The notes under the pieces are model-generated. The model searched no databases, had not been told where the DNA came from, and saw only the letters and a program-made list of their open reading frames with translations. This document shows, in pieces, positions 2,059-43,175 of a DNA stretch of 64,000 nt. Where the stretch lies: assembly GCA_043228905.1 (NCBI GenBank), contig JBHGNT010000013.1, positions 19,654,001 to 19,718,000 of the forward strand, written 5' to 3'. The stretch comes from Azolla caroliniana (taxonomy: Eukaryota > Plantae > Polypodiophyta). Both the position numbers and the translations under genes were made by a program. Every line of letters starts with the position of its first letter. Position 1 is the stretch's first letter.

Positions 2059-2264
2059 AAAAAGATGATGGTAAAAGGTAGAGAGAGAGTGAATGAGAGA
2101 GAAAGAAGACTTGAAATGGAAAGGAGTTTATATATTATAAGAGAACAAGGGTTAGAAAGAGTAGGCTACGGGGCTCAAGACTGGTTAATAATTAGGTAAT
2201 TAGTTAAGGGTTAATTAGTAACTAATTATATGAGTAGTTAATCACATATGTGATTAAGCAACGG

Positions 2265-3223
2265 TGTCGTAGTGTAAATCACACACTATGAGAAAATTGC
2301 ATTTTTAGTCCCTCTGGACGGGATGAAGTAGACCCGGCAAGAGCCAGATGAAGAAGGTCGGTGAGAGTCAATAAGAATCGAATGAAGAGTACCCGATGAG
2401 AACTGGACGAAGCAGACCGGCAAGAGCCGAATGAAGAAGGCTAAGGAGAACCAGTGAGAACCGGATGAAGGAGGAACCGGCAAGGAGGACCCGGTAAGGA
2501 GACTCAATAAGAACCGGCCAGAGCCGGATAAAGAAGGCCGGTGAGAGTCTCTCACCAGATGGAGAGACAAATTTGTAAATAAAAGAAAAGATCGTTACAT
2601 GCATAGGGCAAGATTCAAACCCTATACCTCCACGTAGACAAACCCCAACCTTACCATTGTACTATCTTATTCTAAATGTTCTAAATATAGATTTAATACA
2701 TATAAGACCTTTATTTACGCCTACCTTTATTAAAAGGTAAGTCATGCATTTTTAGAATGCGTGAATACTTTATTTATAAGAAAAATGTACACCAATACAA
2801 AATTACTTGTGCACATCTAGTGAGCATGAGCACTATATTTAGGAAATAAAAGCATAGTGTAAAAAGGCAACTCATGCACATTTAGTGTACATGAACACTT
2901 TAGAAAAAGCATGAAGTTATGCTTAGCCTCTTCCATCCTTATATAAGGAGGAGAGAAAGATGTATGATGTTGTTGATTATTTTACAAGGATTGATCAATC
3001 TAATATATTTGTGGGATTCACGAGTTTATCATCAAAATTCTCTTTCTTACAATCTAAATATTGACTAAATACACTAAAAACATGGAATTCATAAGTTTTA
3101 TTACTTACTTCTCTTTCTACCTATTCATAACTAGCCTTATATTGTATTCTTCTTTCTCCTAGTCCAAAACCTCAGCGGTTCCCACCCGACTCACGCAACG
3201 ATCCGAAGCCGAAAGGCACGACA
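2265..3223 (+). mobile_element. Solo LTR (959 bp) with TGTCGT...ACGACA termini
   Basis: Inverted termini tgtcgt/acgaca; 4-bp TSD ACGG at 2261-2264 and 3224-3227; CCGG-rich short repeats 2320-2560; TATA-like tatataagg at ~2940. Confidence 0.8.
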
Positions 3224-5541: not shown

Positions 5542-5578
<37 letters not shown>

Positions 5579-9029: not shown

Positions 9030-12000
9030 AAACATTGCACTCTTGCAATGCAAAGTTAGGGAAGTTAGTTCTGAGAGTATTTTCGTGTTCCCATGTGGCA
9101 TCTTTTATTGATTTATCCATCCATTTTATTTTAAACTCTCGGATTTCTTTAGTACGTAATGTTTTTGTTTTAACATCGAGAATTCTTTTTGGTACATGTG
9201 GTTAGAAGATTATTCTTCAGAAGTAACCAGAGTTTCAGTTGTAACTGTATTGTTGCCAGAACCTAGAAGTTCTTTTAGACGACTCACATGAAAAAATGGA
9301 TGAATGTCAACACCATCGGGAAGAGCGAGACGATAGGCTGATGACCCAATGCGTTTGAGGATTGTAAAAGGTCCACAAAACCGTGGGGCTAACTTAGCGC
9401 ACGTACCCTTAGACAATGTCTTAGAATTGTGAGGTACACGTAAAAATACCTTCTGTCCAAGGTTGAATACACGAGGTTGCCTATGATGATCGGCATAAAA
9501 ACACGCTCTATCTTGAGCTGTTTTTATATTATCTCGTGCAATATGCAACATATCTTGCATATCCCGAAGAAAGTTTTGCGTACTTCGCAACTCATCATGA
9601 TGTATATTAACATCAATCGGGGCTCGTGGCTGAAAACCATACATCAACATAAAAGGACTATATCCCGTCGACGTATGCTTGGAGCTATTATAAGCAAACT
9701 CTAAAATTGGGAGATAACGTTCCCATTTTGTTGGTTTTGTACCAACATATGCTTGAAGCATGTCCTCAATAATTTGATTTACTCATTTTGTCTGTCCATC
9801 GGATTGAGGATGATCCGTGGAGCTCATGCTCAATGTAGTTTCTAACTTCTTGAGGACTTGAGTCCAGAAGTCACTAGTAAACTTTGGATCTCGATCACTC
9901 ACAATACCATCAGTAACCCATAAAAACGAAATAACTCGTCAACGAATTGGTAAGCCAATTCAGGAGTTGTTACCGTGGTTTTAGTAGCAATAAATCTGGC
10001 CATTTTAGTTAGTCTATCAACCACAACCTAGATGGCGTCATGGCCTTTTTGGGTGCGAGGAAGGCTAACAATAAAATACATGGATATACTTTCCCACTTA
10101 TTATTGGGAATTTCCAAGGGATGTAAAAGTCCTACGGCTTTAAGTCGCTCGACTTTGTTAACCTGACATTGGTGACATTTAGTCACATAGCTATGTATGT
10201 CAGGACGCATCTTAGGCCAATAGAATTGAGTGGAGATGAGAATGAGTGTACGATATATTCCATGGTGCCCCGTAGAGGGTGCATCATGGCATTCAAAAAT
10301 AATTCTCTTTTTGACCTCAGGCAAATCTAGAACACAAACCTTCCCATTACGGTAGAGCAGACCATTAGCAATGTGGAAGTATTCCTTCGAGGATGTGGTG
10401 GTGTCTGATCCATACTCAACTCTTGCCCAGTATTTCGCAAAATAACTGTCATCAGAATACTTTCCTCGAAGGTGATCATAAAGATCTGATGTTATTTCAG
10501 TGAAGCTAAGCATGTTAACTTCACAGATGCGACTTAGTGTATCAGTGACAGTGTTCATGGAACCTTTGCGATATCATATGGAAAAATCAAAGTCCTGGAT
10601 GAGATCAACCCATCGTGCCTTACGACCTTTCAGGTCTTGTTGGTCACAAAAATATTTAAAGGACTCGTGGCTCGTAGTTACCCCAAAGCGATTTACATAA
10701 ACATAATGGCGTCATGTTTTGAGCGCATGTATAATTGCAAATAACTCCTTTTCTTGAACGGTATACCAACATTGAGAAAAATCAAATTTCTTACTCTCGA
10801 ATGCTATTGGTTTACCATCTTGATATAAGACAACACATATAGCATAATTGCTTGCATCGGTTTCAACCTCAAAAGGTTTTGAGGAATCAAGTAAAAGAAG
10901 TGAAGGAGCCTTGCACACCAGTTCCTTGAGTTCCTTAAAGTCGAGGTCTAGTGTAGCATTCCAAACAAGAGGTTTTGTAGACTTATGATGTCGTGAAGAT
11001 TGTCGGCAATGGTGTGAAAATCACATAAAACGTACAAAATCGAGTATGAATCACATAAAACAATAATAGTGAATATAACATTTTAAATAATTTTAATATC
11101 TAAGTACAAAATGATAGAGGTCTTCAAGAACTTTCGAATGCACTTTATTACACGAGAAACGGACAACTAGATGTCAAGATATGAGGGTATAAAGTTTGTG
11201 AAAGGAAAAGAGAAAATTGTGAGATATCCCACATAGGCACGACAAATACGGCTCTCATCATATATAAGGTAGAGCAAAAGTTATTACCTTTGTGTCTATG
11301 TGTGGAGCATAGAGAGTTCAAGGTAACTTGAACTAAGAGTGGAGGTGGCCTAGCTACTTGTAAAGGTTTTGGCCAACCAAAACCGGACCGGTGATCCCCG
11401 GCAAAGCGACGGTGGCACACCGGCAACCGGCGAGACGGCGGAACCGACATCCGGTGCCGGCGAGGCAACGACATCCGACATCCGGCGACTAGATAAATAA
11501 ATATATAAATATATATACATATACATACAAGGAGGGCAAGTAAGGATTTGAACCTTACACCTCCAAGTTAGGAGTCAATTGGCTTACCACTAAGCCAAGA
11601 TATCTAGTTGAAATTACATTTCTATTATTGTACTTTTACATATAAATTCTCATACATGAGAGCTAAAATGAGTGACATGGTTATCATGCACTACATGTAA
11701 TACATGAGCGCCAAATGGCAAACATGCATTTTATGCATGTCTTGAACCCTCAAATGCATGAGGGAATCTATAAATGAGGGAATGAAAAAGATCAAAGGGG
11801 GATTTTCTTGGAAAAAAAAGCTTGGTACTTTAAATTAAAATTAATATTAAGAAGAAAATTCGTTATCGAATTGATCATGTAACTTGTTTCTGAAATCTAA
11901 AGTCAAGTGTTCTTAATCTCTCTCTCAATCTAAAATCAAGCGTTCTATCTTATCTCAATCTCTCTCTCTTTCAATCTATCTTAATTCCTTTCCCGCTAAC

Positions 12001-13210
12001 GCTTGTGCAAACTTCGAGTCCTTCTGGTCCAGAACCCCGGCGATTCCACCTCGCGATCCGCACCTAGTGACGGATCTTCATGACAACGCGTTTGACCTTT
12101 TAGAAGATCAATAAACGGCGTTGTCAATTGGGAGTAATTATGAAGGGATTTTCGCAAAAACCCGACAAAACCAAGGAATGGTCGAACTTCTCGAATATTA
12201 CGAAGAGTGGGCCAAAGCTTGATTTTCTCGATGCGAGAAGGATCAATTTCAACTCGTTCGGTTATGAGATATTCAAGATAAGTAATTGATTTCTTGAAGA
12301 ACTCACATTTTGAGATCTTCGCATAAAATTGTTTGTCACGCAATGTTTGTAAAACAAAGCGGACATGTTTAGCATATTCTTGTAATGTACGGCTATAAAC
12401 TAAAATATCATCCAAGAAAATAACGACAAATTTTCCAAGTTGTTCTCGGAAAATGTCATTCATTTCTTGTTGAAATGTAGCCGGAGCATTGGTCAAACCA
12501 AAAGGCATAACCAAAACCTCATAATGGCCATAGCGCGTACGAAAGGCCGTTTTAAGAACATCATCCTCACTTATACGAATTTGATGGTAGCCAGTATGGA
12601 GATCAAGTTTCGTAAAATACCGAGCTCCCCGGAGACAGTCAATTAGATCATCAACCCGGGGCAATGGATACGAATTCTTGATCGTCACTTTATTCAAGCG
12701 TCGGTAATTAATACACATACACCATGTGCCCTCTTTCTTTTTAACCGTGAGAACTAGTGCACCCCATGGAGATTTACTATAACGTATATAACCCATTCGT
12801 AAATAGTACTTCAGTTGCTTAGATACCTCATCCTCTTCGGATCGACTTAAGCGATAAGGAGGTATACTTATTGGTGCAACGCCAGGTACAATATCTACAT
12901 GATGGTCTATATTATTTTTAGGAGGTAACCCATCTAGTAATTCACTCGGAAAAACATCACGAAAATCATTTAAGATTTCATCAAGTTGTTGTTCAAAATA
13001 TGTTAATTGAACCGAGACATTATCGATATTGTAAACGTGAATGTCCGAATCAAGTACACAATAAAATAGAGTAGAACAAGACAACTCGGATATATTGATG
13101 GAGAGGAAACAATCGAGAGGGATTGTTTTTTTACACATTGAATAAAATGAGTACAATCGTTCAGTACAGAAGTTATTGAATGATGAACCCAATCAATAGA
13201 TAAAGAAGAG

Positions 13211-13215: not shown

Positions 13216-13246
<31 letters not shown>

Positions 13247-14893
13247 CTTCCTCGTCTCTGTGTAACAGCTCTTTCTGCCGTTGTTGTCGCCGTTTATTGT
13301 CGTCCTCGTCGTCGTCGCCGTCGTCTGCAGCCGGTGTCTGTTGCCGACTGTTGCTGTCGTCGTCTGATGACTACCGTTGTCTGTTGTCGTCGCCGTCTGC
13401 TACTATCTGCAGCTAACGTCTGCCGTCGTTTGACGACTGCCACCGTCACCGTCGCCGTCGCGGGGTGTTTCTTCTCCATTTTCTCTTGACGTTGTGAAGT
13501 GCCATTTTCTTGACAAGTTCGTGGGTGGGTTCTTTTGGTGTGCTCGTCGTGTGCTACAAAATGCCGATGTGATTGCGACATACACACAAACTCGGCTAAG
13601 TCTCGAACCCATTTATTTTACCTTTTTTTCTTATTGACACCACAATGACGTCTAAACGAACTAAGGAACATAAGGATATACAAGACGAGGCTATAAGTAA
13701 GGAGCACTTTTTAGATATGTTTAATCGTTTAACAAAAATAGAGATGGATATGAAAAAATGGGTGAAAGACGCCGAAACCCACAAGAAAAAAGATAGAGAG
13801 GAAAAAGACGCCCTCAAGGCCGAAATAGAACAACTTAAAGTGGAAAACACCGACCTTAAAAAACAACTTAAGGACATCGAGGTATCTCGAGAAGACGGTG
13901 AAATATCCTCTATAGAGGATATAAAGGACGAAATTAAAAAAGTTAAAGAGGAAGTTAATAATAACATAGAGTTAGCTAAAACGGGTTGGGTAGATGTGGT
14001 TAAAAGAAACATTAAATAAGAAATAAAAGATGAAAATATTGTTAATACCACCCTTGAAGAAGAGAAAATGCGTCAGGCCCGACGCTTAAATGTACGTTGT
14101 CGTGAAGAAAACCGTTCATAGGCGGAATCGGCGCACCAAGGCGTGGGAACCGGTTCTTCACGCGCGCACGCTCCAAGTTGTACATAGAAGCGAATTAGGA
14201 GGATAATCGGCAGGAACGGGCCCTAACACAAGTGGAGACAAAGACCGCGCGAACAGTCTTTTCGGTCGCGCGCGCGAGCTAAGGAACTGTACGAGTCGGC
14301 GACGTAACTACGCGGGTGCGTGAAGAACGGAGCGGATCCCTGCTCGAAAGGGACAGGGAATAAAGCTGACATGACGGCCTGCTCGTCGGCCTATATAAGG
14401 AGCAGGAAAGAGCTGTTGCAGGGATCTGGCGCAGAGAGGACGAAGTGCTGTCGGACCGTTTCTGGACGCTTCTCTCTCTGTTTCCTTCCTTCTTGAGCTC
14501 GATAGCTTTTCTGTGCAGGGTTCCGAGGAGGCTCGCGCTGTTTCGAGGAACGCCCGAGTGCTTCCGGCAGCACCTCCGACCTGCTACCCCTTTGTGCGTC
14601 GAAGCGAACAGGCATCGGCATCTGTTCGCCGGCCTGTTCGGTTGTAGCCAACCTGTGCCCCATCGAGGGTTGTAGTCGTGTTAGCCATTTTGTTAATATA
14701 CATATTTAGTCATTCGCATCTGTCTGTGTCGGTGTCTGTTCGCGTTCTCCGTGCTGAAGGGCCGTGTCCCTGTGTATCCCCGGTCCTGCGTAGCCGGTTC
14801 TCTCTCTTTCTCCTCCCTCGCTTGCTCTTTGGTTCGAGACCCCCGCGGTCCCGCCTCGTTTCCACACGCACTTGCGTAATATCTCGACATCTT

Positions 14894-14910
14894 TGGTGAA
14901 CCCGACGTGA
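14894..14910 (+). promoter_or_regulatory. Primer-binding site complementary to tRNA-Trp
   Basis: TGGTGAACCCGACGTGA is the reverse complement of the plant tRNA-Trp 3' end (TCACGTCGGGTTCA-CCA); the same site is in copy 2 at ~34823-34839. Confidence 0.85.
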
Positions 14911-14933
14911 AGGAGGCGGCAGAAGAGCAGAAG

Positions 14934-17900
14934 ATGAGGGGGTCGGATCTTGCAGAGGCCATGGCTTCGGCCGTGGACCGGATTGTAAACGCGCACGAGG
15001 GCACCGGTGCCCTCGACAGAGCCATTGAGGCGGTCGTCGGCACGATCGGCCGGTTCGATGGGAAGGATGCCACGAAGTATTTGGCGTCCTACGGTCCAGA
15101 GATGCTGATGCGGGACATTCCGGAAGAAAGGCGTCTTGCCGGATTTCCCCGAGTGGCGATGCTGAGCATCCATGCGGAGGTGCTCGAGGTGCGGGCGGAG
15201 AGTCGTACCTGGGAGGAGTTCGAAGGTCGGCTCCTAGAGAAATACGGGCTGGACGACGCGCTCCGGCTTTCGAAGCGAAGGTTCATGGAATGGGTGGAGT
15301 CCCCGGGGAAGGGAAGAAACGCGTCGGCACTCCTCCGGGAGTTCGAGGAAAACTTTGCGCGCCTTTCGGCGCTCGACCGAACCATCCTGGACACGAGCCG
15401 GGTCTTGCTGTTTGTCAAGTCGGTCGACGAGCGGGATCGGGAGCAAGTGGGCCTCTTGCTGGAAACCGAAGACGGGCTCACTACCGACTGGGCGGCTGTC
15501 AAGAAAGTCTGTGGCCGTTTCGACAAACGGCGAGAATGGGCGGATAACGGGGCAACCGGGTCGGGCTCGGTCGCAGCAAGGGAGCTCGAACCAGCGCCAC
15601 AGGTGCGAAAGGAAGAGACCCGAGAATGGTTGGAAACCGGTTCGGCTTCAATCGGCGTAGTCAAAGGCTCAACCGGAGGAGCGGCGCTGGAGGAATTGAC
15701 GAGGGCGATAAAGGACCTCCAAATCGCGCAAGCCCGAAGGGAAGGTGGCGAACCGGCTCGTGACCGACGGCCGGCGGCAGGAAACAGGTGCATGTGGTGC
15801 GATGAAGTCGGCCACATTCGGAAGGACTGCGGCGACTTCGCGGAGGCGCTGAGGAACAGGGTGGTGTACCTGTGGGAAGGACGGGTGCATGCCAGCGACA
15901 CCCGAAGGGCCCTGAGCCGAAACGACGGGCGAGGTGGTATGAAAAGGTTGATGGAAGAGGCGGCGGCCCGACACGCGGAAACCGTCCACTACTCGGCGTC
16001 GGCCGGCATTCGAGTCGGGGGCGGCGAGGCCCGAAGGGAAAGCAAAGCCGGATTCTGGCCGACGATGCTGGAAGGCCTTGCCGGTGCAAGGCTTAAAAGG
16101 GAGGAATCGGACCGTGCGGAGAAACGGGTACGGGAGATGACCGGGTGGAGCGACCCGGTCGAGGAAAAGACGGGCTTCGTGGAAGCCGCTTGCCAGAACT
16201 ACGAGGCTCTGGTAGAAGAGAAGCGGGTGGGGAAACCCGGGACGACCGGGCCCTCACAACGATACGAGACCCGGTCCGGGCCACGACGGGACGAAACCGG
16301 CGGGGCCGGTACGCAAGATAAACCCCAGAAGGGCAGGTACCGTCTGGGGACGGAGATAGAAAGGACCACGGACTTACGAAAGGTCCTGGAGGAACGGATC
16401 CTCGACAGCAAGGTGGAGCTGTCGTTACAAGAGGTGCTGGGAATCGCCAAGAAGGAGTTCCACGACTCCATCGTGGACTTGGTAAAACGGAAGAGGCTGT
16501 CAACGGAGACAGAACTGGAAAGACCGGTGGAAGTGCGGACGACGCACCTAGACGACATGGCGCTGGGAGACGAGTGGGCGGAAAGCCACTATTCGAGACC
16601 ACACTGGGCCCGAGCGACCACGGAAACCCCGGTGAAGATCGGCGATGTCCAGGAACCGGTGATAGCTTTGGTGGACCACGGATCGGAGATCAATTTGATG
16701 TCCATGGACTTCTATAAGAAGGGCAGATGGCCGATCAACACCAAGCACGGGTGGAAAATAAGGGCAGCAATGCGCGCCACCGAGGAACTGCACGGGGCCT
16801 GTCCGAATGTGCAAGTCAAGATCGGCGACGTCGAGATTGACCAGCACTTCTTCGTGCAGGAGACGTCTTCGCATCCGGTCATACTGGGAGAGCCGTACAT
16901 CACGGCGGCGCGAATGGAGACCAAGGTGCTGGACAATGGTTCAGCCTACGCGAGGGTCAAAAGCCAAGACGGGCGCCATTCGGTCCAGTTTCTGACGGTA
17001 CGGCCGAACCACGAACGTAACCGCGACTCCCTGGAACCGAGGGGATTTTTAGAGAGGACTGCCAAGGCGTGGGGCCGCGACAGTCTGGATGCTCCGGGAA
17101 AACCCCACATCTGTACGATAAAACCGTGTACAATAGGTAGGAAATTTTGCTTCTCCGACAGCGGAGCATGTACGATGGTCGGCATCGCCGGCCGAGAGAA
17201 AACAAAGACGGAGGGGAGACTTCGAGCGTGCGGAGTTCTCGGCCCTGACGAAGAAATCAGTGGCACCGTGGAGGCGGTCTCCTTCGACGACACCTTGGGA
17301 ATGCTGGGGAAGGTAGTCGAAGAAGACCTTAACGAAGACCGGACGATACCGGTATGTTCCGAAGAAATGTACGAAGTCATCGCGGACTTTGGTCAGGGGC
17401 TCGAGTCGGATCGGACGGCCCGAGTAAGCACCAAGTACAAGACCGTGGACCGGAAGGTAAGGCCAGTCGCGGTACCGTTACCGGAGGGCAGCGAGTCGCG
17501 AATCAAAGGGGTTGCATCGGACCCCAGCTTACGAGATCCGGCCTGTATAGGACACACCTTCACCAACGAGACGCTCCGAGAGCTCAAAATCGGTGGGGGC
17601 GGGTTCCTACTACCGGCGGAGGAAGACCGGTTTCGGAGAATGCTCGGAAGGCACGGGAAAGCCTTCGCATTCTCACCGGAGGAAATCGGGTGCGTAGACC
17701 CGACGATCGTAGAGCCAATGGTGATATTCACGGTACCGCATGTACCGTGGAATCTCAAGCCAATTCCGGTTCCGAGAGCTCACATCCCGAAGTTGATGGA
17801 GTTGTTGAAGCAGAAAGTTGATATGGGCATTCTCGAGCCGTCGAGCGCCCCATATTCAAACCGATGGTTTACCGTACCAAAGAAAAACGGATCGTTGCGC

Positions 17901-20531: not shown

Positions 20532-21764
20532 AGACGGGCCGGTTTTCTCCGTCCCAACTCTCTTGGCGCATACCGGAGGATGCGCGGTTAGGTGGGGGCG
20601 GATGTCGTGAAGAAAACCGTCCATAGGCGGAATCGGCGCACCAAGGCGTGGGAACCGGTTCTTCACGCGCGCACGCTCCAAGTTGTACATAGAAGCGAAT
20701 TAGGAGGATAATCGGCAGGAACGGGCCCTAACACAAGTGGAGACAAAGACCGCGCGAACAGTCTTTTCGGTCGCGCGCGCGAGCTAAGGAACTGTACGAG
20801 TCGGCGACGTAACTACGCGGGTGCGTGAAGAACGGAGCGGATCCCTGCTCGAAAGGGACAGGGAATAAAGCTGACATGACGGCCTGCTCGTCGGCCTATA
20901 TAAGGAGCAGGAAAGAGCTGTTGCAGGGATCTGGCGCAGAGAGGACGAAGTGCTGTCGGACCGTTTCTGGACGCTTCTCTCTCTGTTTCCTTCCTTCTTG
21001 AGCTCGATAGCTTTTCTGTGCAGGGTTCCGAGGAGGCTCGCGCTGTTTCGAGGAACGCCCGAGTGCTTCCGGCAGCACCTCCGACCTGCTACCCCTTTGT
21101 GCGTCGAAGCGAACAGGCATCGGCATCTGTTCGCCGGCCTGTTCGGTTGTAGCCAACCTGTGCCCCATCGAGGGTTGTAGTCGTGTTAGCCATTTTGTTA
21201 ATATACATATTTAGTCATTCGCATCTGTCTGTGTCGGTGTCTGTTCGCGTTCTCCGTGCTGAAGGGCCGTGTCCCTGTGTATCCCCGGTCCTGCGTAGCC
21301 GGTTCTCTCTCTTTCTCCTCCCTCGCTTGCTCTTTGGTTCGAGACCCCCGCGGTCCCGCCTCGTTTCCACACGCACTTGCGTAATATCTCGACAACGTGT
21401 CACTGGGCTCAAGGAAGGTGCATCCCCAAATGAGGATGCACAAACACTTGGGAAAATGTTAGGGTACACAGAGGCCCTACCTATCACCAAAGCATGGAGG
21501 GCCGGGCATGACACAACTAGGAAGAGAGCCTTAGTCCTTCAATTTAAAGACTTAGACTCTAGAATCACTTTCTTTAAGAAGAGACCAATCCTTCGAGGAA
21601 TGGGTGGGGACCCCATCTATCTCGATGAAGACCTCACTAAGATGCAAATTGAGCATCGCAAGAGTTGTATGCCACGAGTTATGCAAGCTCGTAAAGAAGG
21701 CCATCGCGCCTTTTACCGAGACGGGTGAGTGATCATAAATGATCGCACTACTAATTGACAGTGT

Positions 21765-24700
21765 GTGGCTCATGTGACAGAAAATGCACTTAGGATGACC
21801 TTATGGAATTGTAACGGCGCACTCTGGGCACACCCCGGCCGCCTAGAGGAGATACTAAAGGTATCTGATATACTTTTCTTGGTAGAAACACATCAGAGCC
21901 CAAATAGAGGACTCCCACGGGTCGAAGGACTCCGTTGGGAGTCCGCTTTTAGACAAACCTCACGTCGACACACTACTGGGGGATCTTGAGGTGTCGCGAT
22001 ACTGTTTCATAGAGAGCTACATAATAGGATAGAAATAATGAAGATAGACCCAGAAGCTCGTTTTATGTGGGTGAAAGTCTCCACAAGCAAAGACCAAGCA
22101 GTATTTTTCGCCATTTGTTACTTTCCCCCAAAAGGATCCCGTTATAATATTGGTGGCTTGGCGAGATTAGTTGATGAAGGAATGCCACATGGGCCTTCCC
22201 CATACGAACCCCTATCGGATGACATAATCCGATATTCTTCCCAAGGAGAAGTATTTCTTGTAGGAGACTTCAATGCGAGAACCCAATCCTGACAATGCAC
22301 AGTATTTCAGATGAATAGAAACCTAGAAATGGTAAATGTCGATCCTTTAGACATAGGCACCACACGTAGATCAAAGGATCAAGGTGCGGACACCACGAGC
22401 TTTGGCCATCATCTGTTCGAACTTGGCAGTCGGCACCGGATGGTCATATATAATGGTTTAGCTAAGTGGCCGGGCTCGGAAGAGCTCACATGTTTCCCAC
22501 ATGGAGGAGGGGAAAGCACAGTTGATTATCTAATAGGACGCCCTGAAGCTACCCACATGATTAACTCCTTCCGAGTGGCCCCATGCCCTATTGGCGCAGA
22601 CTATAGTTTCTTATACTTCGAGCTAAAATGTGATATCACTAATGTCACCAAGTCTGGTCAACCATGCCATCACACCACAATACATTTCACACATGAGCTC
22701 TCTGACATATACTCTCAACATGTTCAGGCCCATCTCCCCTCCCTTGATCCCTCCCTACCGTTAGAAAGCCTTAGTACGAAACTCACACACATCCTTCACT
22801 CCGCAGCAGCTAGCAATTTCCCATATACAAAACACTCAAATCAAGGTAGATCAGGATCAATGCCACAAAATAAATGGTATGATGAGGATTGTAGGGACTT
22901 ACATAGACAACTTACAGTATCGCAACTTAATGGTAGTATTACCTCCATACAAGCTCGCAAAGAAATGCGCAAGATGACACGTCGTAAGAGACGAGCGTGG
23001 GAGGCATCCCAATATTGGGAACTCTACCATATGCTCATGAGTGGCGATTGCGCCACGGCATGGAAGAGACTACAGGAGCCAAGACCACAAACACCCATCG
23101 AAGATCCCGAAACTTGGCACACATATACAGAGAGACTTTACCAAATCCCAAACCAACCACCCATTCCAATGCCTTCCACACCCCGGCCTACCACGGGGAC
23201 ACTTTTCACGACCTCTAGGGTCGTGAAGGTCATAAAGAAATTACAACATAGGAAGTCCATGGACCACACTGGATTGCGAGCAGAACACATTATATATGCG
23301 AGAGAGTACCTAGCTCCCTTGCTAACTCTAATCTTCAATCGTGCCCTTGCGGAGGGTTTTCCACCACAATGGACTATGAATACAGTGGCCCCCATACATA
23401 AAGGGGGGGACCCCATGGACCCAAATACATATAGGACCATTATGATAGGCCATACCCTTGCTAAGTTATATGGTGCAGTAATGGAAGCAGAGCTTAGCGA
23501 CTATATGGAGACCCTAAACCTTCGTGCACCTGAACAAGCTGGCTTTAGATGAGCCTTCTCCACTATTGATCATATCTTCACACTTAGATGCCTAATTGAC
23601 CAAACTAAGGCTCTCAAGAAGAAATTATATTGTTGTTTTGTGGACTTCCGCAAAGCCTTTGACACAGTCCCTAGAGAGCGGTTGTTTGATAGACTTAAAA
23701 GCTTGAGGATACCAAATGATATGGTATGGGCCATCTACGCACTATATGAACAAGTGTTCGGGTGTGTCCGATGCCTGGTGGCCTAGGTGTAAAACAAGGT
23801 TGCCCCCTATCACCGACACTTTTTGGGATCTACATTGATGAGATCATAGATTTTATTGCTCGTGAGGGAGGCACCGGAGTGGTCCTTGGGGATACGCAAG
23901 TTCGTATCTTCCTCTATGTGGATGACATAGTTTTGCTCTCTGAATCCGAACACGACCTACAAAGGCACCTTAATACCTTAGATGACTTTTGTGTACAACG
24001 AGGATTGGTAGTGAATCTAGGGAAAACGAAAGTCCTTATCTTCCACACATCGGCCCAAGTTAGAGTTAAGTGTCACCTAACTATCTCCCATAGCCCAGTT
24101 GAGGTGGTTGAATCATACGTCTATCTCGGAGTCACTTTTAGTGCCCGCTCAGGTAAATTTTCGATGACACGGGCAACAAAGGATAGACTCACGAGAGGAC
24201 ATGCATCCCTCTCACTCCTAGAGAGACAATGCCACCAAGCACACTTTCAAGAGCCAGGGACTAAAGGGTGGCTCTTTGACTCATTAGTGACCCCCTCCCT
24301 CATGTATGCATCAGTGGTTTGGGCTCCGGGACCATCTTTCATGTGGACGCAATTAGAGAGACCATTGGTGATGATGCTATCATGCCAACTCCGAAGCAAA
24401 TCGATTGTACCACATGACATTATTAGGGCTGAGTTCACGTTACCCCCAATGTTAGTAGAGGCACTTTTTCAACTTGTAGTCTTCATTCACAGGATACATA
24501 GCCAACCACATGATAGAATATCTCATCAAGCCTTTAAGGCCTCTCGATCATTGTATGAGTCCGGCTATACTAGCTCATGGTATGGCATGATGGTGAGTTG
24601 GCTTCTTGAGAATGGTCTAGACATTAATAACCTACCTCCCCTTAGGTACAACCACACGAGTGATAACACTTTAATCTCTCATGAGGACCGCAATAAAGTA

Positions 24701-30751: not shown

Positions 30752-33700
30752 TGTCGTGATATTAAGCAAGTGCGTGTGGAATCGAGGCGGGACCGCGGGG
30801 GTCTCGAACCAAAGAGCAAGCGAGGGAGGAGAAAGAGAGAGAACCGGCTACGCAGGACCGGGGATACACAGGGACACGGCCCTTCAGCACGGAGAACGCG
30901 AACAGAGACCGACACAGACAGATGTGAATGACTTAATATGTATATTAAGAAAATGGCTAATCACGACTACAACCCTCGACGGGGCACAGGTTGGTTACAA
31001 CCGAACAGGCCGGCGAACAGATGCCGATGCCTGTTCACTTCGACGCACAAAGGGGCTGCCGGAAGCACTCGGGCGTTCCTCGAAACAGCGCGAGCCTCCT
31101 CGGAACCCTGCACAGAAAGCTATGGAGCTCAAGAAGGAAGGAAACAGAGAGAGAGAAGCGTCCAGAAACGGTCCGACAGCACTTCGTCCTCTCCGTCCCA
31201 GCCCCCCCTGCAACAGCTCTTTCCTGCTCTTATATATCCCGACGAGCAGGCCGTCCTGTCATCTTTATTCCCTGTCCCTTTCGAACAGGGATCCGCTCCG
31301 TTCTTCGCGCATCCGCGTAGTTACGCCGCCGACTCGTGCCGTCCCTTAGCTCGCGCGCGCGACCGAAAAGACTGTTCGCGCGGTCTTTGTCTCCACCTAT
31401 GTTAGGGCCCGTTCCTGCCGATTATCCCCCTAACTCGCTTCTTCGTACTACTTGGAGCTTGCGCGCGTGAAGAACCGGTTCCCACGCCTAGGTGCGCCGA
31501 TTCCGCCTATGGACGGTTTTCTTCACGACATCCGCCCCCACCTAACCGCGCATCCTCCGGTATGCGCCAAGAGAGTTGGGACTGAGAAAACCGGCCCGTC
31601 TTCATTCCTCGTTTTCGGATCGTTCGTCACTGCCGACCAGGAGAGCTGGGTCTGGCTCGTCGTCGTGTCGCTTCTTGAACGCTTTGATCCGCTTCCCTGC
31701 AACCGGTATCGTCATTCTCGTGCCGTCGAGTTCCGCCAGGTGGTATGTCCCGTTGTCATTGGCGCTCTGTACCATGTAAGGCCCGAACCACCTTCGTGCG
31801 AACTTCCGTGTAGCTCGGTGCTGGTTGTCGAGGCTGCTATCGTAGACGAGCACCCAGTCACCTTCTTCGATTTTCTTCGGTCGGAGCCGGTGCGTTCGGT
31901 CGAACCTGGCTTTGTTCTTTTTCCTCGCTACTCGGAGCTTCTCCGTAGCCAGTTCCACGTCCTCCGGCCTTCGCTCGAGCTGTCGTATGCGCGCGGCCAA
32001 CAACTCCTCCCGGCTCATCTCGTCCCTCCAGTCGACCGTTGCCCACGAGGAGATCGTCCGTTCCATCGGCATGATCGGCTTCTGGCCGAACATGAGCTCT
32101 GTCGGCATGTACCCGGTTACCGAACTGTGCGTGGTCCGGTCTGCCCACAAAGCATAAGGTAGGGAAGGTGTGTCCTATGCAGGCCGGATCCCGTAAGCTG
32201 GGGTCCGATGCAACCCCTTTGATTCGGGATTCGCTGCCCTCCGGTAGGGGCGCCGCAATTGGCCTCACCTTCCGGTCCACAGTCTTGTACTTGGTGCTAA
32301 CTCGGGCCGTCCGTTCCGACTCGAGCCCTCGACCGAAGTCCGCGATGACTTCGTACATTTCTTCTGAACATACCGGTATCGCCCGGTCCTCGATAAGGTC
32401 TTCTTCGACTACCCTCCCCAGCATTCCCAAGGTGTCGTCGAAGGAGACTGCCTCCACGGCTCCGTTGATTTCTTCGTCAGGGCCGAGAACTCCGCACGCC
32501 CGAAGTCTCCCCTCCGTCTTGGTTTTCTCTCGGCCGGTGATGCCGGCCAACGCACATGCTCCGCTGTCGGAGAAGCAAAATTTCCTACCTATTGTACACG
32601 GTTTTTTCGTACAGATGTGGGGTTTTCCCGGAGCATCCGGACTGCCGCGGCCCCACGCCTTGGCAGTCCTCTCTAAAAATCCTCTCGGTTTGCGGAACCG
32701 AGGGAGTCGCGGTTACGTTCGTGGTTCGGCCGTACCGTCAGAAACTGGACCGAATGGCGCCCGTCTTGGCTTTTGACCCTCGCGTAGGCCGAACCGTTGT
32801 CCAGCACCTTGGTCTCCATCCGCGCCGCCGTGATGTACGGTTCTCCCAGTATGACCGGATGCGAAGATGTCTCCTGCACGAAGAAGTGCTGGTCAATCTC
32901 GACGTCGCCGATCTTGACTCGCACATTCGGACAGGCCCCGTGCAGCTCCTCGGTGGCGCGCGTTGCCGCCCTTATTTTCCACCCGTGCTTGGTGTTGATC
33001 GGCCATTTGCCCTTCTTATAGAAGTCCATGGACATCAAGTTGATCTCCGATCCGTGGTCAACCAAAGCTATCACCGGTTCCTGGACATCGCCGATCTTCA
33101 CCGGGGTTTCCGTGGTCGCTCGGGCCCAGTGTGGTCTCGAATAGTGGCTTTCCGCCCACTCGTCTCCCAGCGCCATGTCGTCTAGGTGCGTCGTCCGCAC
33201 TTCCACTGGTCTTTCCGGTTCTGTCTCCGTTGACAGCCTCTTCCGTTTCACCAAGTCCACGATGGAGTCGTGGAACTCCTTCTTGGCGATTCCCAGCACC
33301 TCTCGTAACGACAGCTCCACCTTACTGTCGAGGATCCGTTCTTCCAGGACCTTTCGTAAGTCCGTGGTCCTTTCTATCTCCGTCCCCAGACGGTACCCGC
33401 CCTTCTGGGGTTTATCTTTCGTACCGGCCCCGCCGGCTTCGTCCCGTCGTGGCCCGGACCGGGTCTCGTATCGTTGTGAGGGCCCGGTCGTCCCGGGTCT
33501 CCCCACCCGCTTCTCTTCTACCAGAGCCTCGTAATTCTGGCAAGCGGCTTCCACGAAGCCCGTCCTTTCCTCGACCGGGTCGCTCCACCCGGTTATCTCC
33601 CGTACTCGTTTCTCCGCGCGGTCCGATTCCTCCCCTTCAAGCCTTGCACCGGCAAGGCCTTCCAGCATCGTCGGCCAGAATCCGGCTTTGCTTTCCCTTC

Positions 33701-35622
33701 GGGCCTCGCCGCCCCCGACTCGAATGCCGGCCGACGCCGAGTAGTGGACGATTTCCGCGTGTCGGGCCGCCGCCTCTTCCATCAGCCTTTTCATACCACC
33801 CTTTCCGTCGTTTCGGCTCAGGGCCCTTCGGGTGTCGCTGGCATGCACCCGTCCTTCCCACAGGTACACCACCCTGTTCCTCAGCGCCTCCGCGAAGTCG
33901 CCGCAGTCCTTCCGAATGTGGCCGACTTCATCGCACCACATGCACCTGTTTCCTGCCGCCGGCCGTCGGTCACGAGCCAGTTCGCCTCCTTCCCTTCGGG
34001 CCTGCGCGATTTGGAGGTCCTTTATCGCCTTCGTCAATTCCTCCAGCGCCGCTCCTCCGGTTGAGCCTCTGACTACGCCGGTCGAAGCCGAACTGGTTTC
34101 CAACCACTCCCGGTTCTCTTCCTTGCGCACCTGTGGCGCTGGTTCGAGCTTCCTTGCTGCGACCGAGCCCGACCCGGTCGCCCCGTTATCCGCCCATTCT
34201 CGCCGTTTGTCGAAACGGCCACAGACCTTCCTGACAGCCGCCCAGTCGGTAGTGAGCCCGTCTTCGGTTTCCAGCAAGAGGCCCACTTGCTCCCGATCCC
34301 GCTCGTCGACCGACTTGACAAACAGCAAGACCCGGCTCGTGTCCAGGATGGTTCGGTCGAGCGCCGAAAGGCGCGCAAAGTTTTCCTCGAACTCCCGGAG
34401 GAGCGCCGACGCGTTTCTTCCCTTCCCTGGGGACTCCACCCATTCCATGAACCTTCGCTTCGAAAGCCGGAGCGCGTCGTCCAGCCCGTATTTCTCTAGG
34501 AGCCGACCTTCGAACTCCTCCCAGGTACGGCTCTCCGTCCGCACCTCGAGCACCTCCGCATGGATGCTCGGCATCGCCACTCGGGGAAATCCGGCAAGAC
34601 GCCTTTCTTCCGGAATGTCCCGCATCAGCATCTCTGCACCGTAGGACGCCAAATACTTCGTGGCATCCTTCCCATCGAACCGGCCGATCGTGCCGACGAC
34701 CGCCTCAATAGCTCTGTCGAGGGCACCGGTGCTCTCGCGCGCGTTTACAATCCGATCCACGGCCGAAGCCATGGCCTCTGCGAGATCCGACCCCCTCATC
34801 TTCTGCTCTTCTGCCGCCTCTTTCACGTCGGGTTCACCAAAGATGTCGTGATATTAAGCAAGTGCGTGTGGAATCGAGGCGGGACCGCGGGGGTCTCGAA
34901 CCAAAGAGCAAGCGAGGGAGGAGAAAGAGAGAGAACCGGCTACGCAGGACCGGGGATACACAGGGACACGGCCCTTCAGCACGGAGAACGCGAACAGAGA
35001 CCGACACAGACAGATGTGAATGACTTAATATGTATATTAAGAAAATGGCTAATCACGACTACAACCCTCGACGGGGCACAGGTTGGTTACAACCGAACAG
35101 GCCGGCGAACAGATGCCGATGCCTGTTCACTTCGACGCACAAAGGGGCTGCCGGAAGCACTCGGGCGTTCCTCGAAACAGCGCGAGCCTCCTCGGAACCC
35201 TGCACAGAAAGCTATGGAGCTCAAGAAGGAAGGAAACAGAGAGAGAGAAGCGTCCAGAAACGGTCCGACAGCACTTCGTCCTCTCCGTCCCAGCCCCCCC
35301 TGCAACAGCTCTTTCCTGCTCTTATATATCCCGACGAGCAGGCCGTCCTGTCATCTTTATTCCCTGTCCCTTTCGAACAGGGATCCGCTCCGTTCTTCGC
35401 GCATCCGCGTAGTTACGCCGCCGACTCGTGCCGTCCCTTAGCTCGCGCGCGCGACCGAAAAGACTGTTCGCGCGGTCTTTGTCTCCACCTATGTTAGGGC
35501 CCGTTCCTGCCGATTATCCCCCTAACTCGCTTCTTCGTACTACTTGGAGCTTGCGCGCGTGAAGAACCGGTTCCCACGCCTAGGTGCGCCGATTCCGCCT
35601 ATGGACGGTTTTCTTCACGACA
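30752..35622 (-). mobile_element. Internally deleted GC-rich Ty3/gypsy (copy 2, same family as 14098-21394)
   Basis: 779-bp LTRs 30752-31530 and 34844-35622 with no differences seen; TSD ACGG; Trp PBS and PPT kept; ~2.4-kb deletion at ~32163 removes RT, RNase H and the integrase core. Confidence 0.95.
32673..34799 (-). CDS. Gag-protease ORF of copy 2, ending at slippery site G GAT TTT TAG
   Basis: Nearly identical to the N-terminal ~700 aa of the copy 1 ORF, but stops after the protease (REDF*). Confidence 0.88.
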   Translation of the reverse strand: MRGSDLAEAMASAVDRIVNARESTGALDRAIEAVVGTIGRFDGKDATKYLASYGAEMLMRDIPEERRLAGFPRVAMPSIHAEVLEVRTESRTWEEFEGRLLEKYGLDDALRLSKRRFMEWVESPGKGRNASALLREFEENFARLSALDRTILDTSRVLLFVKSVDERDREQVGLLLETEDGLTTDWAAVRKVCGRFDKRREWADNGATGSGSVAARKLEPAPQVRKEENREWLETSSASTGVVRGSTGGAALEELTKAIKDLQIAQARREGGELARDRRPAAGNRCMWCDEVGHIRKDCGDFAEALRNRVVYLWEGRVHASDTRRALSRNDGKGGMKRLMEEAAARHAEIVHYSASAGIRVGGGEARRESKAGFWPTMLEGLAGARLEGEESDRAEKRVREITGWSDPVEERTGFVEAACQNYEALVEEKRVGRPGTTGPSQRYETRSGPRRDEAGGAGTKDKPQKGGYRLGTEIERTTDLRKVLEERILDSKVELSLREVLGIAKKEFHDSIVDLVKRKRLSTETEPERPVEVRTTHLDDMALGDEWAESHYSRPHWARATTETPVKIGDVQEPVIALVDHGSEINLMSMDFYKKGKWPINTKHGWKIRAATRATEELHGACPNVRVKIGDVEIDQHFFVQETSSHPVILGEPYITAARMETKVLDNGSAYARVKSQDGRHSVQFLTVRPNHERNRDSLGSANREDF

Positions 35623-38430: not shown

Positions 38431-40557
38431 TGAATGATTATTTCTAGCAAAGAAATAGGATAAGGTCAGACAAATAGTCATAACATCATGTCGTGATGTA
38501 AACATATCATGGGCAAACATTAATCGATATCATGATCTCACGTCAATACCCCTCTAGATGTATGAGATGAGGTTCAAGATCAGGTTACTATGGTAACACA
38601 AAGGTGTTTTAAAAACCATGGGGGTGACAAATAAATGTCTTTCCCTAATCTCTATATCGATTTTTTTCATGGCGGCTCCCCGAGGCTCAACCATGTATGT
38701 TTGCGTCATGAATAGTTTATACACGAAAAAAATGTCAACAATAAACTATGTTTCGGTGCCCACATATGTGGTTTCGGCTCTTTAAGTCCTATTACGAGGA
38801 CCCCGAAGTGCACTTAGACCTCAAGTCTAAACATGTGTTATAGTCATATGTATCAACAATGTTGTATGGTCTTGGTTATATTTGAACTCGAGACCTCGAG
38901 AACAAATACATTAAACACTTGAGCTAACCAATTAGGTTGCTCTTTTTGAATGTTATGTCTCATGCGTATAAGAGATATGCAAGGCATTTGCCCATATATG
39001 TTTTTGTAAAAGAAACATATATGTCAAGAGTCCTTATTTCCCCCTCGTTTACCACAAACTTTGTTGGTACGTTACCTAACCTCAAGTCTCGTAATTACGA
39101 TGGCATACGCCAAAGTGCAACCTAATGGTCAAGCCAAATGAGCCCTCTTTTCGTAGTAGGCCCATCACATGGTTACGTCATTATGAATGCCTTTCGTAAG
39201 AATGATCTCATGGTGGCATCGTATCCATGTAATGAGGGAGGGATGTTGGATATGTGTGTCATAGGAGCGACCTCACACGAAGTGGGTTAAGCCCTATGTA
39301 CTCAACACCATTGTGGCTATGATTGTTTCATTACGTAACGAAATCGAAGTCACCAACGGGGATGTCAACCAATAAAAAGTTGTTGAAAAAGGGATGGTGA
39401 CAATGCCATTCTCACAAAAATGTGAGGACGGCCACCAAAATCCTTTCCCCGAAAAGGAAAACATTTGATATTAAAATCACGTAATAACTTATATACACAT
39501 ATGTATATTATCACATATATACGATCAAATACGTATACACGTGACCACATATGCATATATAAAAGAAATCATAATATAAATTAGCCAAAAATGATGTAAT
39601 CGAGATACGTAAGCGAGGCATATACCCTCTATGCACACGAAACATCTAAAAATAAGGGTTAATCGTAATACGCAATTACGGTATTGACCTCATACGCATA
39701 TCAATTACATACAAATCAAGGTAATGACCTCATACGCAAACATAACATGTGTTTGTGAACGTAATACGTAATTGAGGTATTAACCTCGTACGCATACGAC
39801 ACCAATCACATATTAAATATATGTCAAATGAGGTATTGACCTCGTGCACATATGTAAACATTTTATATAACCAATTAATTACCACTACAACATCATTGAA
39901 TTAATGAAAAAAAAATTACATATGACCATATACATGATTAGAAGGGAGAAGAAAAAATAGAAAAACAAATAAGGAAAGAGTTACCGAAGTTCTTTGTTGA
40001 TCGTTGTCTGGATCAAGGCCGACAGCACATTGATCGATCACCATCAATCAAGAACACCAAAGACAACAAAAGGAACATTAGAACATGAGCTCGGATACCA
40101 ACTATTAGAGATATGTACTAATGTAAGCAAAGGATAAGGATAAACGATAGATCTAGATAGAGAGGAAAGAGAGAAAGAAGGGTGTCGATCCACCCGACCA
40201 CCCCCGAGCGAAGGGATCAAGACGGACTCGAGCCTCGATCGGCGTCCCATACCACCGTCCTGGTGTCGAGTCGTACTTGGTGCTGGCGCGCTTGCCACAA
40301 GAGTTGAACCACCGAGAAACAGAGTCTCGACATAGTCAAAAAGATCATGAAATGAGGGTAGCTAGGCCTCTTATTTATAGCAATACCCAAGGGCCCCAGG
40401 CAAGTTCACACTTGGCCTAATGGATTGTCTCAATACCGAGGATTAAAAGTAATCCTCCCCTTCTTTACACTCTCATTTAACCCTCACACTTATCCACGTG
40501 TATAGAATACTATAGTAAATTCTCACCACAGGATATTATATGGTCATGCCCGTAACA

Positions 40558-43175
40558 CTATGAGTAAGAGTATCCGCTCGATACATGCGTGAGACCATCT
40601 ACCTAAACTAAACGAATGGTGTTGAGTGACATGATGTCTACTAGAACTAAGTTCACATAGCAAGATAATTTCCATTTGAACGAAAGCATGTACTATGAGT
40701 AACAGTGTTCACTCAATACATGCATGAGATCATCTACCTAAACTAAATGAATGAAGTTGAGTGAAACAATGTCTACTAGAACTAAGTTCACATAGCAAGA
40801 TAATGTGCATTTGAACGGTGTCGCGGTATTCCACGCGGATACGTGGAAACGGGGCAGGACCACGGGGGTCTTGAACCAAGGAATCGAGAAAAGAGGAAGG
40901 GGCCCGCGCATCACGTAAACACAAACACCGCGAACCGGTAAAGAGGAGTAGGAAGGAGCTGGTCGTAGGTGTCGGACTCAAGGTAGTACGAGAGAATGGC
41001 AACACAAGAACGACACAGTAGAAAGACAACGCAAACAACAGAATAGGTTATCACTGGTAGTTAGGACGCGCGCATGAAGCATAGGGGATACAACCGGTCA
41101 GAGCCGGGAATAGAGCTTCGAGCTCTAGAAAAAACACAGGAAAAAGAGGACCTCTGGCCGGGAGCGCGCGAGCCGGGGGTTCCTTCCCGAGATTGGTCGT
41201 AGAGGTCCCGGAGAGAATGGATGAGCGAGCTCCTTCCCCCTGTTCAATAGCGTCCTCTTCTTCTTAAGAAAGAAGAGAAAAAAAAACACAACAACCCCCA
41301 ACAGTTTGAGGCCGCCCCTTTTATAGCACAAGGAGCAGTCGTTACACCCGGTTTAATGATACCCCGATATTCTCTCCTTTCTTTCCGCGCCCCTACCCAC
41401 GTGACATTAAATCCCCTAAAAGTGCCTAACTTCCTAGTAATCCACAAAACCTACCGACACCTAGTACTTACACAAGTTAGTACAAAAGGGGGTGCACTTG
41501 TGCACACCTGCGTTCCCACGCTTTTGGCGACATTTCCCCCGATGGCCTGGAATCTTCACGACATCCACCCCCACCAAATTGCACATCCTTTGGTATGTGC
41601 CAGGTAGCGAGTTTAGTGGAGGATTCCAGGGCTAACCGTTACTCGTCCTCTCGGTCCGAATTATCGCTTTTGATTCCCATTGTCACATCTAATTCTGCTT
41701 CGTTCCGCCTTTTGAAGGCCTTTATCCACTTCTCTGCTACCAGTGTCGTCATCCGGGTTCCGTCGAGCTCCGCAAGAACCATGTATGGCCCGAACCACCG
41801 TTTTGTGAACTTATGCGTAGACTGATGCTGGTTGTCGAGGTTGTTGTCGTAGACCAGCACTCAGTCGCCTTCCTCGCTCTTTTCTTAGCCAAAGTGTGCG
41901 TCCAGTCGAACCTGGTGTTGTTTCTGCTCCGTGACTCTTTTACCCTCGTTGGCCTTCGCTCAAGTTGTCGGATGCATGCCGCCTACAATTCTTCTCGGCT
42001 CATTTCATCGGCCCAATTGACCGCCATCCAGGAGGTAATTGTTCGTTCCACCGGCATGATGGGTTTCTGCCCGAACATGAATTCCGCAGGCATCTACCCG
42101 GTCACCGAACTGTGGGTAGTCCAGTCCGCCCATAGCACGTAAGGGAGTAGTCTCGGCCAGTTGCCGACTCGTCCTTCGCATGCGCGTACTATGGCCTTTA
42201 CGATCGGTCCATGACCCCGCTCGACCTTCCCATTTGCTTATAGGTTGTACGTCGTTGCGAGGGTCAACTTCACCCCTAGTTGATCAAACAGTTCCTTCGC
42301 CTCCTCCGCATCCAGCTCTCCTCGATCAGCCACAATCTTTCCTATGCACCCGTATCGGCAGACGACATCTTCAATCAAAAACTTGCACATGGCCGCGGTG
42401 GTCTTGTTTGTCAACGCTCAACCCTCCACCTAGTTTGGCATATCTTCCCTTGCTAGCACAAGGTATCGCATCTGTCCTACTCTCATTGGCACCGTCACCA
42501 AGTCGACCATCCACTTGAAGTGTATGGCCGACAGGTCAGAGCCGGGAATAGAGCTTCGAGCTCTAGAACAAACACAGGAAAAAGAGCACCTCTAGCCGGG
42601 AGCGCGCGGGTGTCTAACGCGAGCCGAGGGTTCCTTCCCGAGATTGGTCGTAGAGGTCCCGAAGAGAATGGATGAGCGAGCTCCTTCCCCCCTATTCGGC
42701 AGCGTCCTCTTCTTCTTAAGAAAGAAGAGAAAAGAAAAACACAACAACCCCCAACAGTCTGAAGCCACCCCTTTTATAGCACAAGGAGCAACCATTACAC
42801 CTAGTTTAATGATCCCCTGATATTCTCTCTTGATATTCTCTCCTTTCTTTCCGCACCCCTACCCACGCGACATTAAATCCCCTAAAAGTGCCTAACTTCC
42901 TAATAATCCACAAAACCTACCTACACCTAGTACTTACATAAGTTAGTACAAAAGGGGGTGCACTTGTGCACACCCGCATTCCCATGCTTTTGGCGATGTT
43001 TCCCCCGATGGCCTGGAATCTTCACGACAACAGAAGCATGTACTATGAGTAAGAGTATTCACTCAATACATGCATGAGACCATCTACCTAAACTAAACGA
43101 ATGAAGTTGCGTGAAACGATGTCTACTAGAACTAAGTTCACATACCAAGATAATGTCCATTTCAACGGAAGCATC
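40558..43175. repeat. ~135-bp tandem repeat (3 units) interrupted by an LTR element
   Basis: Units starting ctatgagtaa at 40558, 40693 and 43043 share catctacctaaactaaa..gaa..tgtctactagaactaagttcacata. Confidence 0.85.
40819..43029 (-). mobile_element. Older deleted relative of the TGTCG gypsy family
   Basis: 3' LTR 40819-41563, PPT, integrase remnant 41639-42530 (HKFTKRWFGPY), truncated 5' LTR ~42534-43029; TSD ACGG/ACAG. Confidence 0.85.

What the first reader, a model, noticed from the sequence alone, without database searches (positions are those of the whole stretch)
2261..43033. Five independent TGTCG-terminus LTR insertions all have 4-bp TSDs centred on CpG (ACGN)
Seen: insertions at 2265, 10989, 14098, 30752 and 40819 all begin TGTCG and end (C/T)GACA. 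Their TSDs are 4 bp: ACGG, ATGA/ACGC (decayed), ACGT, ACGG and ACGG/ACAG. Every other LTR insertion here with both ends visible has a 5-bp TSD with no CpG (AATGG, AATAC, AGATC, CTATG, ACTAT), and CpG is rare in the host flanks. The LTRs belong to at least four distinct families and both orientations. Known: plant LTR elements normally make 5-bp TSDs with weak sequence bias. Inference: this lineage has an integrase that targets CpG (possibly methyl-CpG) without a chromodomain, which could steer it into methylated repeats.
Basis: partly seen in the sequence, partly recalled or inferred. Interest (0 to 1): 0.8.

Follow-up and report, generated by a model that had tools for sequence, protein, structure and literature searches.

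The report
Fern retrotransposons that insert at CpG
A group of jumping genes in a fern genome inserts almost only into the middle of CG letter pairs; the pattern is real, but the same habit was already published for a moss group (Phygy) to which these likely belong, and a link to DNA methylation is untested.

Summary
Five Ty3/gypsy LTR insertions from four LTR families of one lineage carry 4-bp duplications centred on CG: three are intact and two have one decayed copy. The 4-bp length is fixed independently for four of the five, by empty sister sites or by host reading frames. All five other LTR-type insertions have 5-bp duplications without CpG. The preference holds outside the window. 19 of 20 relatives' LTR starts follow NCGN against 4.1% background (19 of 22 before two false hits were dropped). 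Contigs of three samples leave the E1 LTR mostly through ACG. It is not new: Neumann et al. 2019 report the moss clade Phygy with 4-bp NCGN duplications in 100% of 186 elements, tRNA-Trp priming and no extra domain. These elements match those traits; placement in a tree with Phygy references could not be tested. What is added: a fern host, several families, a VCGB refinement and candidate integrase residues. Methyl-CpG targeting is neither shown nor excluded. The scan's index held no earlier report of this.

The parts
2265..3223 (+). E1: solo LTR (959 bp), TSD ACGG/ACGG
   Evidence: The family is followed by the lineage's PBS in contigs of four runs and in loci L064, L127, L129.
10989..12085 (+). 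E2: solo LTR (1097 bp) inside a minus-strand gypsy pol; TSD ATGA/ACGC (one copy decayed)
   Evidence: frame register. Its start and body match the LTR of L092, which has the same PBS and a gag related to E3.
14098..21394 (+). E3: two-LTR Ty3/gypsy element (7297 bp; LTRs 14098-14889 and 20603-21394, 1 mismatch in 792) inside a LINE; TSD ACGT/ACGT
14894..14911 (+). Primer-binding site, tRNA-Trp type, after a 4-nt spacer
   Evidence: 16 of 18 identical to the tRNA-Trp PBS listed for ALV in PMC4635179
14880..20531 (+). gag-pol reading frame (stop to stop, 1883 aa): DUF4100, RT, RNase H, integrase; no chromodomain or extra RNase H hit
19317..20531 (+). Integrase: HHCC, DDE, SH3/GPY-F domain and a short acidic tail; candidate target-reading positions E156 and loop 320-337 (numbered from 19317)
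20591..20602 (+). Polypurine tract before the 3' LTR
   Evidence: the same type precedes LTR starts in related loci
30752..35622 (-). E4: internally deleted copy of the E3 family, LTRs identical (779 of 779), inside a LINE; TSD ACGG/ACGG
24169..24172 (+). Empty site of E4 (single ACGG) in the sister LINE copy
40819..43029 (-). E5: deleted element (3' LTR 40819-41563, integrase remnant, truncated 5' LTR 42531-43029) in a 135-bp tandem repeat; TSD ACGG/ACAG
   Evidence: 72% nucleotide identity to E3's integrase region

Best explanation
These are copies of one chromodomain-less Ty3/gypsy lineage of a fern, likely the Phygy clade or its close sister, that insert with a 4-bp duplication centred on CG, likely because the integrase itself selects that dinucleotide. 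Shown: the 4-bp duplication, the central CG, a shared PBS, PPT and TGTCG...CGACA ends across four LTR families, and no extra reader domain by Pfam or fold search. Inferred: a 4-bp stagger needs a sharp bend at a central pyrimidine-purine step, as in foamy-virus intasomes. Restriction to CG, rather than any such step, would need base contacts, probably from the conserved loop before the GPY/F motif and from the residue at the position of PFV Ala188. The two imperfect duplications are likely later deamination of methylated CpG. A predicted side effect is frequent insertion into the lineage's own CpG-rich copies.
For: Window: 5 of 5 with CG at positions 2-3 in at least one copy, against 2.5% background. 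Related loci: 19 of 20 LTR starts follow NCGN and the 20th ATGG; background 4.1%, binomial p 8e-26. T is absent at position 1 and A at position 4 in 20 of 20, the same edge bias reported for retroviruses with 4-bp duplications (PMC4422553, passages). E1 family, contigs leaving the LTR end: X3 51 after ACG against 10 after A and 8 after AC; X5 48+11 against 10; X4 43+13 against 10; the contigs that fail continue mostly as ATG or ACA. Phygy traits: 4 bp, 100% NCGN of 186, tRNA-Trp 81%, no extra domain. The PBS is 16 of 18 identical to a published tRNA-Trp PBS. The integrase model (pLDDT 85.5) matches PFV and Ty3 integrases first. K332 is kept in 61 of 61 aligned sequences, R336 55, Q326 50, H327 49, E156 52.
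Against: No Phygy reference sequence was obtained: the paper's FASTA and element table were too large to read, and no listed homologue was named from Physcomitrium. E3 (7297 bp) is below Phygy's 7656-9968 range, and Phygy was defined as specific to P. patens. The RT is only 25-27% identical to the window's other gypsy elements and groups with liverwort and fern sequences and, on a long branch, a fungal one, so a convergent lineage is possible. No contact residue was tested, and the loop was not aligned to PFV Arg329 (that alignment ended at residue 245). The related loci come mostly from one series of assemblies and give half-sites only. The read table was cut (80 rows not shown), and X1 and X3 are one sample.
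Confidence: 0.8

Rival explanations
1. The integrase prefers methylated CpG, so insertions are steered into silenced repeats without a chromodomain.
For: Repeats here bear the marks of methylation: 12 of 26 differences between the LTRs at 8559/40103 and 13 of 30 between E5's LTRs are CpG transitions. Four of five window sites lie in repeats. Some sites are rare CpGs in CpG-poor DNA (E1 flank 2 in 400 bp; L081 1 in 300).
Against: No methyl-binding or chromo domain at Pfam E up to 1 or among the listed fold-search rows. Decay of the duplicated CpG shows methylation after insertion, not before. Relatives' flanks span 0.3-10% CpG. The LINE copies at E4's site differ at CpG in only 3 of 24 mismatches. 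Retroviral base preferences are largely independent of chromatin (PMC4422553, abstract).
Confidence: 0.12
2. The fern lineage is not Phygy but a separate, fungus-related gypsy lineage (Ylt1/SN_1006-like) that reached the same target preference on its own.
For: Very divergent RT. The nearest named non-plant homologue is from the fungus Tilletia. Ylt1-like and SN_1006 groups are the fungal non-chromovirus gypsy lineages (PMC2864245, passages). A similar preference exists in Ginger1 transposons, so it can arise more than once.
Against: It matches Phygy in duplication length, motif, primer tRNA, absence of extra domains and compact layout together. Its relatives are abundant in liverworts, where Phygy is reported (PMC12885004, passages). 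Phygy could itself be the fungus-related lineage, so the two readings may coincide.
Confidence: 0.12
3. Ascertainment or chance: the reader noticed only insertions with neat CG-bearing ends, or misplaced the boundaries.
For: Five cases, pattern defined after the fact, two of them decayed.
Against: Boundaries are fixed by paired LTRs, empty sites and frames. The outside test defined LTR starts by similarity to PPT-defined starts, blind to the flank, and gave 19 of 20. Five 5-bp controls lack CpG.
Confidence: 0.01

Closest known systems
Phygy clade, non-chromovirus Ty3/gypsy of Physcomitrium patens (Neumann et al. 2019, PMC6317226; passages, section 9, supplementary file 5 read)
   Same: 4-bp duplication with NCGN motif, tRNA-Trp PBS, no chromodomain or aRH, polyprotein filling almost the whole internal region
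   Different: Fern host rather than moss; E3 is 7.3 kb against 7.7-10.0 kb; common ancestry not tested; the passages read give no mechanism and no methylation test
Ginger1 DNA transposons (Bao et al. 2010, PMC2836005; abstract and passages read)
   Same: Gypsy-like integrase with GPY/F motif, TGT ends, 4-bp duplications CCGG (75%) or CCGT/ACGG (24%)
   Different: [quoted passage not shown]
Foamy virus and other retroviral integrases with 4-bp duplications (Serrao et al. 2015, PMC4422553; abstract and passages read)
   Same: 4-bp stagger, central pyrimidine-purine step, T and A disfavoured at the edges; best sequence and fold matches of this integrase
   Different: Their preference is weak and for any flexible step; here it is nearly absolute for CG
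TatI and Selgy clades (PMC6317226, supplementary file 5)
   Same: 4-bp duplications; TatI also uses tRNA-Trp
   Different: TatI carries an extra archaeal RNase H and Selgy uses tRNA-Ala; neither has a listed target motif

Membership tests
Ty3/gypsy LTR retrotransposon | Paired LTRs, PBS, PPT, domain order RT-RH-INT | tested here: met
Phygy | 4-bp target-site duplication | tested here: met
Phygy | NCGN target motif | tested here: met
   5 of 5 in the window (two with one decayed copy); 19 of 20 related starts
Phygy | PBS for tRNA-Trp | tested here: met
   16 of 18 identical to a published vertebrate tRNA-Trp PBS; the host's own tRNA-Trp gene was not found
Phygy | No chromodomain, aRH or extra ORF; polyprotein fills the internal region | tested here: met
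   ORF 14880-20531 against internal region 14890-20602; Pfam
Phygy | Clusters with Phygy RT-RH-INT sequences (the primary definition) | not testable with these tools
   Reference FASTA too large to read; no listed homologue named from Physcomitrium; the tree has no Phygy row
Phygy | Length 7656-9968 bp (descriptive; the paper rates size as of little weight) | tested here: not met
   E3 is 7297 bp
Phygy | Host P. patens (as sampled in 2019) | tested here: not met
   The window's NOG1 gene is 83-86% identical to fern proteins and at most 77% to other named plants; later work applies the name in a liverwort
Chromovirus | Chromodomain at the integrase C-terminus | tested here: not met
TatI | Extra archaeal RNase H domain | tested here: not met
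   No RNase H hit beyond the RT-associated one
Ylt1/SN_1006 fungal gypsy | Clusters with Ylt1 or SN_1006 references | tested here: inconclusive
   One fungal homologue on a long branch, no labelled reference

The most novel reading that the evidence does not exclude
A lineage of chromodomain-less plant retrotransposons, spread across mosses, liverworts and ferns, has an integrase that reads 5-methyl-CpG directly in target DNA: an epigenetic mark read by the integration machinery itself, homing it to silenced repeats and to its own CpG-rich copies.
Probability: 0.12. Interest if true: 0.8.

Novelty: new member of a known kind. Interest (0 to 1): 0.3.

Why it matters
Near-absolute sequence specificity is rare among plant LTR retrotransposons; the 2019 survey names Phygy as its only exception. 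Finding the same rule in several high-copy fern families suggests it is an old, kept property of this integrase and makes it testable: the alignment gives candidate residues, and a young insertion with an empty sister site (E4) is at hand. If the integrase read methylation, it would be a way to reach silenced DNA without a chromodomain and a possible tool. As it stands, the headline pattern is already published. A practical point: LTR finders that demand 5-bp or exact duplications will miss these, since the CpG decays.

Tried and rejected
No whole genome is held, so the genome-wide logo was replaced by related loci and contig overlays. A PBS scan of viral contigs gave 25 hits on phage-like contigs, taken as chance and not analysed. 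The first overlay, on E3's LTR, was crowded by internal variants; it gave only E3's empty site and one ACGG flank row. The search for the priming tRNA gene failed: 0 hits, no tRNA-Trp in 34 loci, no tRNA in 31 loci; the paper search listed unrelated mouse papers. Getting a labelled Phygy sequence failed (two picture PDFs of PMC6911290 were not searchable). The Atlas gave only generic gypsy clusters. PMC5014426 gave no Ylt1 duplication data in the passages shown; PMC7466625 gave no duplication data; GingerRoot has 6-bp, GC-rich, non-specific sites. Rejected: a 2-bp CG duplication with longer ends (fits E3 only); an ACGN motif (orientation effect); 5-bp duplications. Dropped rows: L040 (part of L041); of 22 non-PPT starts, L088+ (the PBS junction read backwards) and L037- (4 mismatches, reverse strand); of 4 non-PBS ends, L039 (truncated PBS) and L137 (doubtful), leaving ACGT and ACGG. 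A looser list also showed TCGC (L080, breaks VCGB), ATGT (L036), GCGT (L085) and AATA (L028, an exception if that start is real). My notebook remark that two controls were unconfirmed was superseded.
Full report
Observation. Each runs from TGTCG to (C/T)GACA. The flanking four bases are ACGG/ACGG, ATGA/ACGC, ACGT/ACGT, ACGG/ACGG and ACGG/ACAG; fits of 3, 5 or 6 bases are worse. Self-comparison shows paired LTRs for E3, E4 and, partly, E5. E1 and E2 are solo LTRs.

The 4-bp length is fixed without relying on the ends in four cases. E4 sits in a LINE that has a 99% identical copy in the window without E4; the two alignments overlap by exactly 24169-24172. E5 sits in a 135-bp tandem repeat whose sister units carry a single four-base site. 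For E3, seven contigs of run X3 continue from the left flank straight into the right flank. For E2 and E3 the interrupted host reading frames are open in the 4-bp register and stopped in the 3- and 5-bp registers. CpG makes up 2.5% of dinucleotides outside the five elements, so five of five is about 1e-8 by chance, though the pattern was defined after the fact.

One lineage, four LTR families. E3 encodes gag, RT, RNase H and integrase in gypsy order, with no chromodomain or extra RNase H. E4 is a deleted copy of the same family; E5's internal remnant is 72% identical to E3's integrase region. Of 120 PBS junctions in the 119 loci kept, 98 follow CGACA, 6 TGACA and 16 something else; the final ACA was part of the pattern. 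E1's LTR matches loci with this PBS and a gag related to E3's, and E2's matches L092, which has both. Contigs of four runs also show E1's LTR end running into the same PBS. The host is a fern: the NOG1 gene in the window is 83-86% identical to Adiantum and Ceratopteris proteins and at most 77% to other named plants. Named homologues of the pol region come from the liverwort Riccia, the fern Adiantum and, distantly, the fungus Tilletia.

Test outside the window. LTR starts were defined by similarity to starts fixed by a polypurine tract, blind to the flank. Of 38 such starts, 16 followed a PPT and 22 did not. Two of the 22 were reverse-strand false hits (L088+, L037-). Of the remaining 20, 19 follow NCGN and one ATGG; counting all 22 gives 19 of 22. 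Background CpG in those flanks is 4.1%, p 8e-26. Position 1 is A 11, C 6, G 3, T 0; position 4 is C 6, G 7, T 7, A 0, so the motif is VCGB; a looser list holds one TCGC. Two clean right flanks read ACGT and ACGG. In the overlay on E1's 3' end, contigs leave the window sequence after ACG or ACGG far more often than after A or AC: X3 51 against 10 and 8; X5 48+11 against 10; X4 43+13 against 10; X1 34+7 against 6. The early leavers continue mostly as ATG or ACA, the deamination products. That table was cut (80 rows not shown), X1 and X3 are one sample, and contigs with other first letters are mixed into the PBS row. The loci come mostly from one series of assemblies and are half-sites.

What is known. 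Neumann et al. [quoted passage not shown] Their supplementary table gives Phygy as 186 elements, 4 bp 100% (NCGN), 7656-9968 bp, tRNA-Trp 81%, no extra domain. The PBS here is 16 of 18 identical to the tRNA-Trp PBS listed in PMC4635179. So four descriptive traits match; size is slightly short and the host differs. The primary criterion, clustering with Phygy sequences, could not be tested because the reference files were unreadable here. A search for 'NCGN' with 'retrotransposon' returned three papers, of which only Neumann et al. concerns LTR elements by its title; a six-term search on CpG and methylation targeting listed 14 papers, none on this lineage by title. The library lacks most subscription journals and Repbase reports. 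Ginger1 DNA transposons, with gypsy-like integrases, make CCGG, CCGT or ACGG duplications (PMC2836005), so CpG-centred choice is known twice in this enzyme family.

Mechanism. Shown: stagger, motif, shared ends and domain content. The integrase model (pLDDT 85.5) has the HHCC, DDE and SH3 layout and matches PFV and Ty3 integrases first; only an acidic tail of about 25 residues follows. Known: integrases with a 4-bp stagger bend the target sharply at a central pyrimidine-purine step and disfavour T and A at the edges; PFV Ala188 and Arg329 touch target bases (PMC4422553). The VCGB edges match that rule. Inferred: bending alone would admit TA, CA and TG, so the near-absolute CG implies base contacts. 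Candidates are E156, which aligns to PFV Ala188 (allowing for a three-residue offset in the chain numbering) and is kept in 52 of 61 sequences, and the loop before GPY/F (K332 61 of 61, R336 55, Q326 50, H327 49). That this loop corresponds to the Arg329 loop is recalled, not aligned here. Because the elements are up to 10% CpG, they should be good targets for themselves; L066, L067 and L075 are inserted in same-lineage sequence, with weaker matches for L035 and L088 (3 to 5 of 20).

Methylation. Repeats in the window are evidently methylated (CpG transitions are 12 of 26 and 13 of 30 differences in two older LTR pairs), which explains the decayed duplications but not the state of the sites before insertion. 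No reader domain was found, and relatives' flanks run from 0.3% to 10% CpG. Sequence cannot separate CpG from methyl-CpG choice. I put the methyl reading at about 12%.

Verdict. Real, far beyond chance and shared across the lineage, but most likely a fern member of a clade whose NCGN preference is already published. New member of a known kind; interest 0.3. The scan's index returned one unrelated note and nothing by sequence or by the first word set.

Noticed in passing
window 22319-25696 and 28897-37150, either side of the 100-N gap at 28797-28896: Two LINE copies 99.1-99.4% identical that share their 3' flank; one carries E4, the other is empty there but has a different gypsy element starting at 25697. 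Probably two haplotypes scaffolded in tandem, which would make E4 a polymorphic, very young insertion.
   Followed up: partly
window 14880-20531 against 32673-34853 and loci L041, L042, L046, L093: E3 has gag and pol in one frame, whereas E4 and four related loci have them in different frames; the lineage's usual organisation is unresolved.
   Followed up: partly
window 8559-40557: A 32-kb nested LTR element (LTRs 94% identical, duplication CTATG) encloses E2, E3 and E4; it and E5 both sit in the same 135-bp tandem repeat, about 260 bp apart at its right end.
   Followed up: partly
window 8559 and 47731: Two minus-strand LTR elements begin TATTAG on the plus strand rather than TG, that is, their LTRs end in TA.
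   Followed up: no
L034, L043, L047, L069, L076, L084, L096: Loci with the same PBS but AT-rich ends such as GTAAACA and little or no match to E3's protein: another tRNA-Trp-primed lineage, a possible control for target choice.
   Followed up: no
L066, L067, L075: Insertions into the lineage's own integrase, gag and pre-PPT sequence.
   Followed up: partly
flanks of 20 related LTR starts: C is the base just outside the duplication in 11 of 20; not tested for significance.
   Followed up: no
window 55153-57771 (+) and 60860-62965 (-): Host genes: a DYW-type PPR protein and nucleolar GTPase NOG1.
   Followed up: partly
window 44289-44600: A 74-bp tandem repeat, four copies.
   Followed up: no
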